From the human T2T-CHM13v2.0 reference genome, Homo sapiens: DNA of 64,000 nucleotides. A program made the position numbers and the translations under genes. Of this stretch, positions 41,722-42,331 are shown in pieces. Location of the stretch: contig CP068257.2 of the NCBI GenBank assembly GCA_009914755.4, positions 40,160,001-40,224,000 of the forward strand, written 5' to 3'. Positions within the stretch are counted from its first letter, which is position 1. Each line of letters begins with the position of its first letter. Below the pieces are notes generated by a model. It searched no databases, was not told the DNA's origin, and saw only the letters and a program-made list of their open reading frames with translations.

Positions 41722-42020
41722 CAGGCACGGTGGCTCATGCCTGTGATCCCAGCACTTTGGGAGGCCGAAGGAAGATCGCTCGAGTCCAGGAGTTCAAGAC
41801 CAGCCTGGGCAACATGGCGAGACCCTGTCTCTACAAAAATAAAATAAAATAAAATAAAATAACCAGCCGGGCATGATGGTGTGTGCCTGTAGTCCCAGCT
41901 ACTCGAGAAGCTGAGGTGGGAGGATCACTTGAGCCCAGGACTTCAAGGCCGCAATGAGCTGTGATCACATCACTGCACTCCAGCATGAGCAACAGAGAGA
42001 CCCCATCTCTAACAACAGAA
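41722..42020 (+). mobile_element. Alu with an (AAAAT)n tail. It forms a tail-to-tail inverted pair with the next Alu.
   Basis: 'gccaggcacggtggctcatgcctgtgatcccagcactttgggaggccgaagg...ctctacaaaaataaaataaaataaaataaaataaccagccgggcatgatggtgtgtgcctgtagtcccagctactcgagaagctgagg...'. Confidence 0.9.
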
Positions 42021-42044
42021 AGGTAAATTAGAGCTTACCTGACT

Positions 42045-42331
42045 TTTTTTTTTTTTTTTTGAGACAGTGTCTCACTCTGTTGCCCAGGTTGGAGTGCAGC
42101 GGCGCGATCTCGGCTCACTGCAAGCTCCGCTTCCCGGGTTCAGGCCATTCTCCTGCCTCAGCCTCTCTGAGTAGCTGGGACTACAGGCACCCGCCACCAC
42201 GCCCAGCTAATTTTTTGTATTTTTAGTAGAGACGGGGTTTCACCGTGGTCTCGATCTCCTGACCTCGTGATCCGCCCGCCTCGGCCTCCCAAAGTGCTGG
42301 GATTACAAGCGTGAGCCACTGCGACCGGCCT
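42045..42331 (-). mobile_element. Alu (reverse orientation; AluY/S-like right arm with a small deletion).
   Basis: Poly-T then 'gagacagtgtctcactctgttgcccaggttggagtgcagcggcgcgatctcggctcactgcaagctccgcttcccgggttcaggccattctcctgcctcagcctc...ggtttcaccgtggtctcgatctcctgacctcgtgatccgcccgcctcggcctcccaaagtgctgggattacaagcgtgagccactgcgaccggcc'. Confidence 0.9.

What the first reader, a model, noticed from the sequence alone, without database searches (positions are those of the whole stretch)
41722..42331. Closely spaced inverted Alu pair (about 25-bp spacer) inside an intron of the zinc-finger gene
A + oriented Alu (41722-42020) and a - oriented Alu (42045-42331) lie tail-to-tail, separated by only 'gtaaattagagcttacctgac'. 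In the pre-mRNA (minus strand) this forms a near-perfect roughly 280-bp inverted repeat, the classic substrate for intramolecular dsRNA and ADAR A-to-I editing. At the DNA level it is a cruciform- and instability-prone palindrome. It sits in the roughly 4.9-kb intron between exons 41121-41204 and 46064-46195, which also holds the 47-bp minisatellite.
Basis: partly seen in the sequence, partly recalled or inferred. Interest (0 to 1): 0.5.

Follow-up and report, generated by a model that had tools for sequence, protein, structure and literature searches.

The report
Ordinary intronic inverted Alu pair
Two primate Alu retrotransposons of different ages sit tail-to-tail about 20 bp apart in an intron of the zinc-finger gene PRDM15 and should fold into a long, imperfect RNA hairpin of the kind ADAR enzymes routinely edit; this is a common, well-described arrangement, not a near-perfect or fragile palindrome.

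Summary
A full-length AluJ (+, 41720-42023 with tail) and a full-length AluY (-, 42044-42331 with T17 tail) lie tail-to-tail. Between them are 20 nt of unique sequence, or 51 nt between the Alu bodies. They sit in the 4859-nt intron between two C2H2-finger exons of a minus-strand gene that I identify as PRDM15. The 47-bp minisatellite is in the same intron.

"Near-perfect" is wrong. The arms are 78-79% identical over aligned positions and about 69% counting indels. The predicted duplex has 233 pairs broken into 35 helices, the longest 23 bp. Each Alu has its own target-site duplication, so these are two independent insertions, AluY later and next to the older AluJ.

The transcript strand folds into one long hairpin (z = -22), and this survives folding of the whole intron. 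That matches the published optimal geometry for ADAR editing of Alu pairs, but editing itself could not be tested here.

Two qualifications apply. At equilibrium AluJ pairs better with an AluSx 1.8 kb downstream, across two exons. DNA-level fragility is unlikely, because arm identity and spacer fall outside the unstable range measured in yeast.

Verdict: an ordinary, known kind of feature; low interest.

The parts
41706..41718 (+). 5' target-site duplication of the AluJ (AAATGAGAGCTGA)
   Evidence: Matches the 3' copy at 42025-42037 at 11 of 13 positions
41720..42009 (+). AluJ-type element, body. Antisense in the PRDM15 pre-mRNA. Left monomer about 41720-41833, linker expanded to (AAAAT)5.4 at 41836-41862, right monomer about 41866-42009.
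   Evidence: Best match is AluJo: 86.2% over aligned positions, 8.3% non-CpG divergence. Two sub-threshold Metazoa_SRP hits on the + strand. TRF finds the AAAAT array.
42010..42023 (+). Degenerate A-rich tail of the AluJ (TAACAACAGAAAGG)
   Evidence: Read directly from the sequence
42025..42037 (+). 3' target-site duplication of the AluJ (AAATTAGAGCTTA). It makes up most of the unique spacer 42024-42043.
42040..42048 (-). Tail-side target-site duplication of the AluY (TGACTTTTT on the + strand). Its T's merge with the tail run.
   Evidence: Exact 9/9 match to 42332-42340. The reconstructed empty site ...TGACTTTTT/AAAATATT fits the L1 endonuclease TTTT/AA nick consensus (established knowledge).
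42044..42060 (-). T17 run, which is the poly(A) tail of the minus-strand AluY
42061..42331 (-). AluY-type element, body. Sense in the PRDM15 pre-mRNA. Carries a 12-bp deletion in the left monomer.
   Evidence: 94.8% identical to AluY over aligned positions, 14 mismatches of which 7 are at CpG, 2.6% non-CpG divergence. Consensus positions 86-97 (TCCCGGCTAAAA) are missing. Two sub-threshold Metazoa_SRP hits on the - strand.
42332..42340 (-). Head-side target-site duplication of the AluY (TGACTTTTT)
41205..46063 (-). Host intron of PRDM15 (4859 nt). Contains the Alu pair and the 47-bp minisatellite (44040-45554).
   Evidence: AG/GT borders and in-phase joining of the flanking finger exons. P0081 reads through a short version of the same intron, which shows the two exons are neighbours. 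Minisatellite.
46064..46195 (-). Upstream C2H2-finger exon (132 nt)
41121..41204 (-). Downstream C2H2-finger exon (84 nt). Its 3' splice site lies 515 nt downstream of the AluJ in the transcript.
39619..39898 (-). AluSx in a later intron, an alternative pairing partner for the AluJ. Together with AluJ it brackets exons 41121-41204 and 40522-40697.
   Evidence: Cofold ddG is -227.9 for J+Sx against -172.2 kcal/mol for J+Y. In the 2.9-kb fold there are 249 J:Sx pairs and 8 J:Y pairs.

Best explanation
The feature consists of two independent Alu retrotransposon insertions in one intron of PRDM15. An old AluJ inserted first, on the + strand and antisense to the gene. A much younger AluY later inserted by L1-mediated target-primed reverse transcription at a TTTTT/AAAA site just 2 bp past the AluJ's 3' target-site duplication. 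It went in the opposite orientation, which put the two tails face to face. When the intron is transcribed from the minus strand, the AluY sense copy emerges first and the AluJ antisense copy follows 51 nt later. The two zip into a roughly 290-nt imperfect hairpin: 233 pairs, about 80% of arm nucleotides paired, and a 26-nt loop. Such intronic inverted Alu hairpins are the standard promiscuous substrates of nuclear ADAR1/ADAR2. The most likely fate is scattered low-level A-to-I editing of both arms, followed by removal and decay with the spliced intron, with no effect on the PRDM15 protein. What is shown here: the identity of the elements, their orientation, their TSDs, the gene context and the predicted fold. 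What is inferred: the order of insertion, co-transcriptional formation of the local hairpin, editing, and the lack of any consequence.
For: Searches identify both elements as full-length dimeric Alus of different subfamilies (AluJ about 14% diverged from its consensus, AluY about 5%). One search finds separate TSDs for each (11/13 and 9/9) and an L1-EN-type target site, which rules out an inverted duplication. Searches show a minus-strand PRDM15 finger array with exons that join in phase. One search gives the hairpin MFE of -384.7 kcal/mol, z = -22. Searches give 233 inter-arm pairs with mean pair probability 0.95, and the same 233 pairs are kept when the whole 4859-nt intron is folded. From the literature: editing of Alus depends on the distance to the nearest inverted Alu, the optimal configuration is two full-length Alus separated by a 10-50 nt loop, and more than 85% of pre-mRNAs are estimated to be edited in introns (PMC526178). 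In 92% of edited intronic Alus the nearest inverted partner is in the same intron (PMC2533698). Short loops restrict Alu pairs to the optimal dsRNA conformation, and intronic pairs are edited mainly by nuclear p110 and are non-immunogenic (PMC12695637).
Against: No RNA data were available, so editing is unverified. A literature search for PRDM15 with Alu and A-to-I found nothing. Arm identity (about 79%) is at the low end for Alu pairs, and editing falls as divergence rises (PMC526178). At thermodynamic equilibrium the AluJ prefers the AluSx at 39619-39898: the global MFE of 39500-42400 is 62.5 kcal/mol better with J:Sx pairing, leaving AluY folded on itself. The local hairpin is therefore favoured only by proximity and order of transcription, and alternative Alu foldbacks are known to coexist in vivo (GPR81 example, PMC526178).
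Confidence: 0.75

Rival explanations
1. The relevant RNA structure is not the neighbour hairpin. Instead AluJ pairs with the AluSx at 39619-39898 in a later intron. That pairing loops out exons 41121-41204 and 40522-40697 and favours back-splicing (a 260-nt two-exon circRNA) or exon skipping. In this view AluY acts only as a competitor or decoy.
For: The J:Sx duplex is more stable than J:Y (ddG -227.9 vs -172.2 kcal/mol). The equilibrium fold of 39500-42400 has 249 J:Sx pairs and 8 J:Y pairs and is 62.5 kcal/mol below the local-hairpin alternative. J-Sx identity is 82.7% against 79.1% for J-Y. Competition between cross-intron and within-intron IRAlu pairs is an established determinant of circRNA output (PMC11263572). 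PRDM15 has at least one catalogued circRNA, hsa_circ_0061803, of unknown exon content.
Against: AluY and AluJ are 51 nt apart and are transcribed about 1.8 kb before AluSx, so the local hairpin forms first, and displacing 233 pairs is kinetically costly. Editing frequency falls steeply with distance between partners (PMC526178). Short-loop pairs are the most conformationally restricted (PMC12695637). There is no evidence that the catalogued PRDM15 circRNA involves these exons.
Confidence: 0.15
2. At the DNA level the pair is a cruciform-forming, breakage-prone quasi-palindrome that destabilises the locus.
For: Single-stranded DNA of the region folds into a long hairpin (MFE -173.9 kcal/mol, z = -13). 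Inverted full-length Alu pairs with spacers of 24 bp or less are about 13-fold rarer than direct pairs in the human genome (I:D = 0.076, PMC3215922). In long single-stranded DNA, Alu-IRs down to 75% homology still provoke rearrangements in yeast (PMC10164571).
Against: In double-stranded DNA, lengthening the spacer from 12 to 20 bp lowers Alu-IR recombination about 40-fold. Instability is lost completely at 75% homology, and a single mismatch near the centre of symmetry reduces it significantly (PMC10164571). This pair has at least 20 nt of unique spacer, 51 bp between the homologous bodies, 78-79% identity and non-matching tails at the centre. Cook et al. attribute much of the low I:D ratio to an insertion preference that creates direct pairs, not to loss of inverted pairs. 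The AluY has accumulated about 5% divergence since it inserted, so the pair has persisted for a long evolutionary time; this last point is inference.
Confidence: 0.05
3. The inverted repeat arose from a single inverted duplication of one Alu, not from two separate insertions.
For: Only the tail-to-tail symmetry of the arrangement.
Against: The arms belong to different subfamilies with very different divergence from consensus. They are only about 79% identical. Each is bracketed by its own distinct target-site duplication.
Confidence: 0.01

Closest known systems
Intronic inverted-repeat Alu pairs (IRAlus) edited by ADAR1/ADAR2 (Athanasiadis 2004, PMC526178; review PMC11263572)
   Same: Two full-length Alus in opposite orientation in one intron of a protein-coding gene. 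The loop is short, inside the 10-50 nt range described as optimal. The predicted stem is long, imperfect and intramolecular.
   Different: Editing was not demonstrated for this locus here. Arm identity (about 79%) is lower than for typical S/S or S/Y pairs because one arm is an old AluJ and the AluY lacks 12 bp.
RABL5 intron-2 AluJo/AluSx pair that modulates splicing of the downstream exon (Lev-Maor 2008, PMC2533698)
   Same: A sense/antisense Alu pair in the intron upstream of a coding exon, with the antisense Alu being the one nearer the exon.
   Different: In RABL5 the proximal Alu is 24 nt from the exon, and the effect disappears when it is moved more than about 68 nt away. Here the proximal AluJ is 515 nt from the 3' splice site, so no comparable effect is expected.
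Recombinogenic Alu quasi-palindromes in the yeast assays of Lobachev and colleagues (PMC10164571, citing Lobachev 2000)
   Same: Inverted Alus with a short spacer.
   Different: The unstable constructs have a 12-bp spacer and 86-100% identity. This pair has at least 20 nt (51 between bodies) and about 79% identity, which is near the level where instability vanishes in double-stranded DNA.
Immunogenic 3'-UTR IRAlus sensed by MDA5 (PMC12695637)
   Same: Short loop size, the feature that best distinguishes immunogenic pairs.
   Different: This pair is intronic and so is removed before export. [quoted passage not shown]

Membership tests
Alu SINE (dimeric, 7SL-derived) | About 280-300 bp dimer: left and right monomers joined by an A-rich linker | tested here: met
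   Both elements align end to end with Alu consensus positions 1-282. Each has two monomer-sized SRP-like segments.
Alu SINE (dimeric, 7SL-derived) | Sequence and structure homology to 7SL/SRP RNA | tested here: met
   Metazoa_SRP (RF00017) hits of 47.8-50.6 bits, E about 1e-11, for three monomers and 16.3 bits for the fourth. All are below the gathering score of 70, as expected for Alu monomers that lack the S domain.
Alu SINE (dimeric, 7SL-derived) | 3' poly(A) tail and flanking target-site duplications from L1-mediated TPRT | tested here: met
   AluY has an A17 tail and a 9/9 TSD at a TTTTT/AAAA site. AluJ has a degenerate A-rich tail and an 11/13 TSD.
ADAR-edited inverted Alu pair (IRAlus) | Two oppositely oriented Alus within one transcript, close together (less than about 2 kb) | tested here: met
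   Both lie in the 4859-nt PRDM15 intron with 51 nt between bodies.
ADAR-edited inverted Alu pair (IRAlus) | Stable long intramolecular duplex | tested here: met
   MFE -384.7 kcal/mol, z = -22, 233 inter-arm pairs, retained in the whole-intron fold. Caveat: it is out-competed by AluSx at equilibrium.
ADAR-edited inverted Alu pair (IRAlus) | Clusters of A-to-G mismatches between RNA and DNA in both arms | not testable with these tools
   No RNA-seq data or editing database was available. The literature search for PRDM15 editing found nothing.
Fragile DNA quasi-palindrome (recombinogenic Alu-IR) | High arm identity (about 86% or more; instability lost at 75%) | tested here: not met
   78.5-79.1% over aligned positions and 68-70% including indels. 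Threshold from PMC10164571.
Fragile DNA quasi-palindrome (recombinogenic Alu-IR) | Very short spacer (about 12 bp) with matched sequence at the centre of symmetry | tested here: not met
   20 nt of unique spacer plus non-matching tails (14-nt degenerate A-rich tail against T17), giving 51 bp between homologous bodies.
circRNA-promoting flanking IRAlus | The two arms lie in different introns that bracket the circularised exon(s) | tested here: not met
   AluJ and AluY are in the same intron. The AluJ/AluSx combination does meet this criterion.
Immunogenic (MDA5-activating) IRAlus | Present in mature cytoplasmic RNA (UTR or exon) | tested here: not met
   The location is intronic. Criterion from PMC12695637.

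The most novel reading that the evidence does not exclude
The younger AluY insertion acts as a built-in decoy. It captures the AluJ co-transcriptionally and so prevents the thermodynamically better AluJ:AluSx pairing across exons 41121-41204 and 40522-40697. This would shift PRDM15 output from back-splicing or exon skipping toward linear mRNA in the primate lineages that carry the insertion. ADAR editing or DHX9 unwinding of the weak J:Y stem could tune that balance.
Probability: 0.08. Interest if true: 0.3.

Novelty: already known. Interest (0 to 1): 0.1.

Why it matters
It matters little on its own. Intronic inverted Alu pairs number in the hundreds of thousands in primate genomes. Their folding, their editing by ADARs and their competition in splicing and circRNA choice are textbook material. 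The useful result here is a correction: the pair is an imperfect hairpin of about 79% identity made of an old and a young Alu. It is not a near-perfect palindrome, and published thresholds argue against DNA fragility. The only mildly interesting point is the three-way competition among AluY, AluJ and AluSx around two PRDM15 finger exons. That is a concrete, testable instance of the known within-intron versus cross-intron pairing model.

Tried and rejected
- Rfam at gathering thresholds over the whole window found nothing. Only the relaxed search showed the SRP-like monomers and the Alu-derived miRNA families, all below threshold, so no miRNA gene is claimed.
- The literature search for PRDM15 with Alu and A-to-I returned 0 papers.
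- I tried to verify from papers that the 12-bp deletion marks the AluYd lineage. Nothing in the texts I could reach addressed it. The Yd assignment therefore rests on memory only and is not used in the argument.
- An exact scan of metagenome contigs for the unique spacer, to find orthologous or empty-site alleles, gave 0 hits.
- An exact look-up of the 110-aa ORF spanning the AluY head and unique flank found nothing on record, so no cross-assembly or cross-species comparison was possible.
- The second protein search returned mostly single-exon ORF fragments. Only P0081 was informative about exon adjacency.
- Exonisation of the antisense AluJ was considered. There are 3'ss-like AGs behind a long U-rich tract at 41831/41829, but no 5'ss consensus was found in the element, so it was rejected as a prediction.
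- A splicing effect of the RABL5 type was rejected because the Alu is 515 nt from the exon.
- An inverted-duplication origin was rejected on the TSDs and subfamilies.

Full report
**What is in the sequence.** The region 41720-42331 contains two full-length Alu elements in opposite orientation. It finds 24 Alu pieces covering 9.7% of the window. Among them are a + strand AluJ-like copy at 41720-42009 and a - strand AluY-like copy at 42061-42330.

An independent, curated test agrees. At a relaxed threshold Rfam reports four Metazoa_SRP (7SL) matches, one per Alu monomer: two on the + strand (41720-41833, 41866-42011) and two on the - strand (42059-42207, 42229-42329). All are below the family's gathering score, as expected for Alu monomers. 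At gathering thresholds the window has no Rfam match.

**Anatomy of the junction.**
- The AluJ body ends at 42009 and is followed by a decayed A-rich tail (TAACAACAGAAAGG, 42010-42023).
- The AluY carries a T17 run at 42044-42060, which is its poly(A) tail on the minus strand.
- Between them lie 20 nt of unique sequence (42024-42043).

Each element has its own target-site duplication:
- AluJ: AAATGAGAGCTGA (41706-41718) and AAATTAGAGCTTA (42025-42037), 11/13 matching.
- AluY: TGACTTTTT (42040-42048) and TGACTTTTT (42332-42340), 9/9 matching.

The reconstructed empty site, ...TGACTTTTT/AAAATATT..., fits the L1 endonuclease TTTT/AA nick preference (established knowledge). The spacer is therefore essentially the AluJ's 3' TSD plus 2 bp plus the AluY's TSD.

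**Ages and origin.** The AluY is 94.8% identical to its consensus (14 mismatches, 7 at CpG; 2.6% non-CpG divergence). It lacks consensus positions 86-97. The AluJ is 86.2% identical to AluJo (8.3% non-CpG divergence) and has an expanded (AAAAT)5.4 linker. Different subfamilies, different ages and separate TSDs show two independent insertions, the AluY arriving later beside the older AluJ. They rule out an inverted duplication.

**Gene context.** The minus strand carries a series of single C2H2 fingers in separate small exons.
- The exons at 46064-46195 and 41121-41204 have AG acceptors and GT donors.
- They join in phase to each other and to a third exon at 40522-40697. The result is an open 130-residue finger array that matches zf-C2H2 and zf-H2C2_2 above Pfam cut-offs.
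- The C-terminal ORF at 31607-32086 identifies the gene as PRDM15. Named hits are 'PRD15 protein' and 'PR domain zinc finger protein 15'.
- P0081, a homologue from another genome, reads in frame through a short version of the same intron. This shows that the two finger exons are direct neighbours.

The intron is 41205-46063 (4859 nt). It also holds the 47-bp minisatellite at 44040-45554 (31.9 copies, 91% matches).

**How good is the inverted repeat?** It is not near-perfect.
- Gapped alignment of the two arms gives 215 matches, 59 mismatches (41 of them transitions) and 40 gap columns. That is 78.5% identity over aligned positions and 68% over all columns.
- The bodies alone give 79.1% and 69.8%.
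- The ungapped repeat finder sees only three segments of 48-58 nt at 78-86% complementarity.

**RNA folding.**
- The minus-strand RNA 42350-41700 folds into one long hairpin. MFE is -384.7 kcal/mol against -219.9 +/- 7.4 for dinucleotide shuffles (z = -22.4; 0 of 20 shuffles as good).
- The stem has 233 inter-arm pairs in 35 helices (25 G-U pairs, 12 single A:C mismatches). The longest uninterrupted helix is 23 bp and the terminal loop is 26 nt.
- Mean pair probability is 0.95.
- The same 233 pairs are recovered when the entire 4859-nt intron is folded.

The prediction of an intramolecular dsRNA is therefore robust within the intron.

**A qualification I did not expect.** The AluJ has a better partner: an AluSx on the minus strand at 39619-39898, 1.8 kb further along the transcript and two exons away.
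- Cofolding gives ddG -227.9 kcal/mol for AluJ+AluSx against -172.2 for AluJ+AluY.
- When the unspliced stretch 42400-39500 is folded, the global minimum (-1280.2) has 249 J:Sx pairs, only 8 J:Y pairs, and the AluY folded on itself.
- The 'local hairpin first' alternative is 62.5 kcal/mol worse.

The neighbour hairpin is therefore favoured by proximity and order of transcription (AluY, then AluJ 51 nt later, then AluSx about 1.8 kb later), not by equilibrium thermodynamics. Published data favour the nearby partner:
- Editing frequency falls with the distance between inverted Alus, and the optimum is two full-length Alus with a 10-50 nt loop (PMC526178).
- In 92% of edited intronic Alus the nearest inverted Alu is in the same intron (PMC2533698).
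- Short-loop pairs are conformationally restricted to the optimal duplex (PMC12695637).

Alternative foldbacks can nevertheless coexist in vivo (GPR81, PMC526178).

**Most likely mechanism.** The hairpin forms co-transcriptionally and is bound by nuclear ADARs. It is probably edited at many sites at low levels and is then discarded with the intron. The evidence for editing is indirect (geometry plus literature). I could not examine RNA data, and a literature search for PRDM15 editing found nothing. Because the pair is intronic, it is not expected to be an MDA5 ligand (PMC12695637).

A splicing effect like the RABL5 case is unlikely. There the proximal Alu must lie within about 68 nt of the exon, and here it is 515 nt away.

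Within-intron pairs are known to compete with cross-intron pairs that promote back-splicing (PMC11263572). So the AluY could act as a decoy against AluJ:AluSx pairing around two finger exons. PRDM15 does have a catalogued circRNA, but nothing links it to these exons. This remains a low-probability speculation.

**DNA-level claim.** Single-stranded DNA of the region can also form a long hairpin (MFE -173.9, z = -13). The experimentally defined requirements for Alu-IR fragility in duplex DNA are not met:
- Going from a 12- to a 20-bp spacer cuts recombination about 40-fold.
- Instability is lost at 75% homology.
- Even one mismatch near the centre of symmetry significantly reduces it (PMC10164571).

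This pair has at least 20 nt of unique spacer, 51 bp between homologous bodies, mismatched tails at the centre and about 79% identity.

Genome-wide, inverted full-length pairs with spacers of 24 bp or less are about 13-fold rarer than direct ones (I:D 0.076). Cook et al. attribute much of that to an insertion bias that creates direct pairs, not to loss of inverted pairs (PMC3215922). The AluY's own divergence of about 5% implies that the pair has coexisted for a long time, which is an inference. Only in long single-stranded DNA contexts might such a divergent pair matter.

**Is the spacing unusual?** It is the tightest Alu pair in the window, at 51 bp against 166 bp or more for all the others. 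Random placement of the 24 Alu pieces still gives an inverted neighbour pair this close in about 22% of trials.

**Verdict.** This is a real, correctly located, ordinary intronic inverted Alu pair in PRDM15. It is a plausible but unverified ADAR substrate. It is not near-perfect and is unlikely to be a fragile palindrome. It belongs to a thoroughly described class, and interest is low.

Noticed in passing
window 39619-39898 (-) with 41720-42009 (+): AluSx and AluJ in different introns bracket two PRDM15 finger exons (41121-41204, 40522-40697). They form a more stable predicted duplex than the AluJ/AluY neighbour pair. This is the geometry associated with back-splicing.
   Followed up: partly
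window 42061-42331 (-): The AluY lacks 12 bp of the left monomer (consensus positions 86-97, TCCCGGCTAAAA). From memory this is the hallmark of the AluYd lineage, but I could not confirm that in the papers available.
   Followed up: partly
window 41836-41862: The AluJ middle linker has expanded into an (AAAAT)5.4 microsatellite. In the pre-mRNA it gives a U-rich tract of about 30 nt followed by AG at 41831/41829 (3' splice-site-like). No 5' splice-site consensus was found in the antisense AluJ.
   Followed up: yes
window 44040-45554: 47-bp minisatellite with 31.9 copies and 91% matches, in the same intron as the Alu pair.
   Followed up: partly
window 36064-37469: A degenerate CACCAC/CACCATCACCACCAC array of about 1.4 kb (periods 6, 9, 15, 21). 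It produces long spurious His/Pro/Thr- and Val-rich ORFs on both strands.
   Followed up: no
window 59248-61080: A CA-rich degenerate array of about 1.8 kb with higher-order periods of 51, 113, 137 and 141 bp.
   Followed up: no
window 20920-21298, 62630-62899 and 62923-63105: Further minisatellites: a G-rich 27/28/55-bp array, a 38-bp x 7 array and a 37-bp x 4.9 array.
   Followed up: no
window 41864-41915, 41932-41991, 42081-42140, 42157-42209: Sub-threshold Rfam matches to Alu-derived miRNA families (mir-1268, mir-3135, mir-1285, mir-1303) inside both Alus. All are well below gathering scores and simply reflect the Alu origin of those families.
   Followed up: yes
window 14895-25783: Alu orientation is strongly clustered: eight + strand copies in a row (14.9-20.8 kb), then five - strand copies in a row (21.3-25.8 kb).
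   Followed up: no
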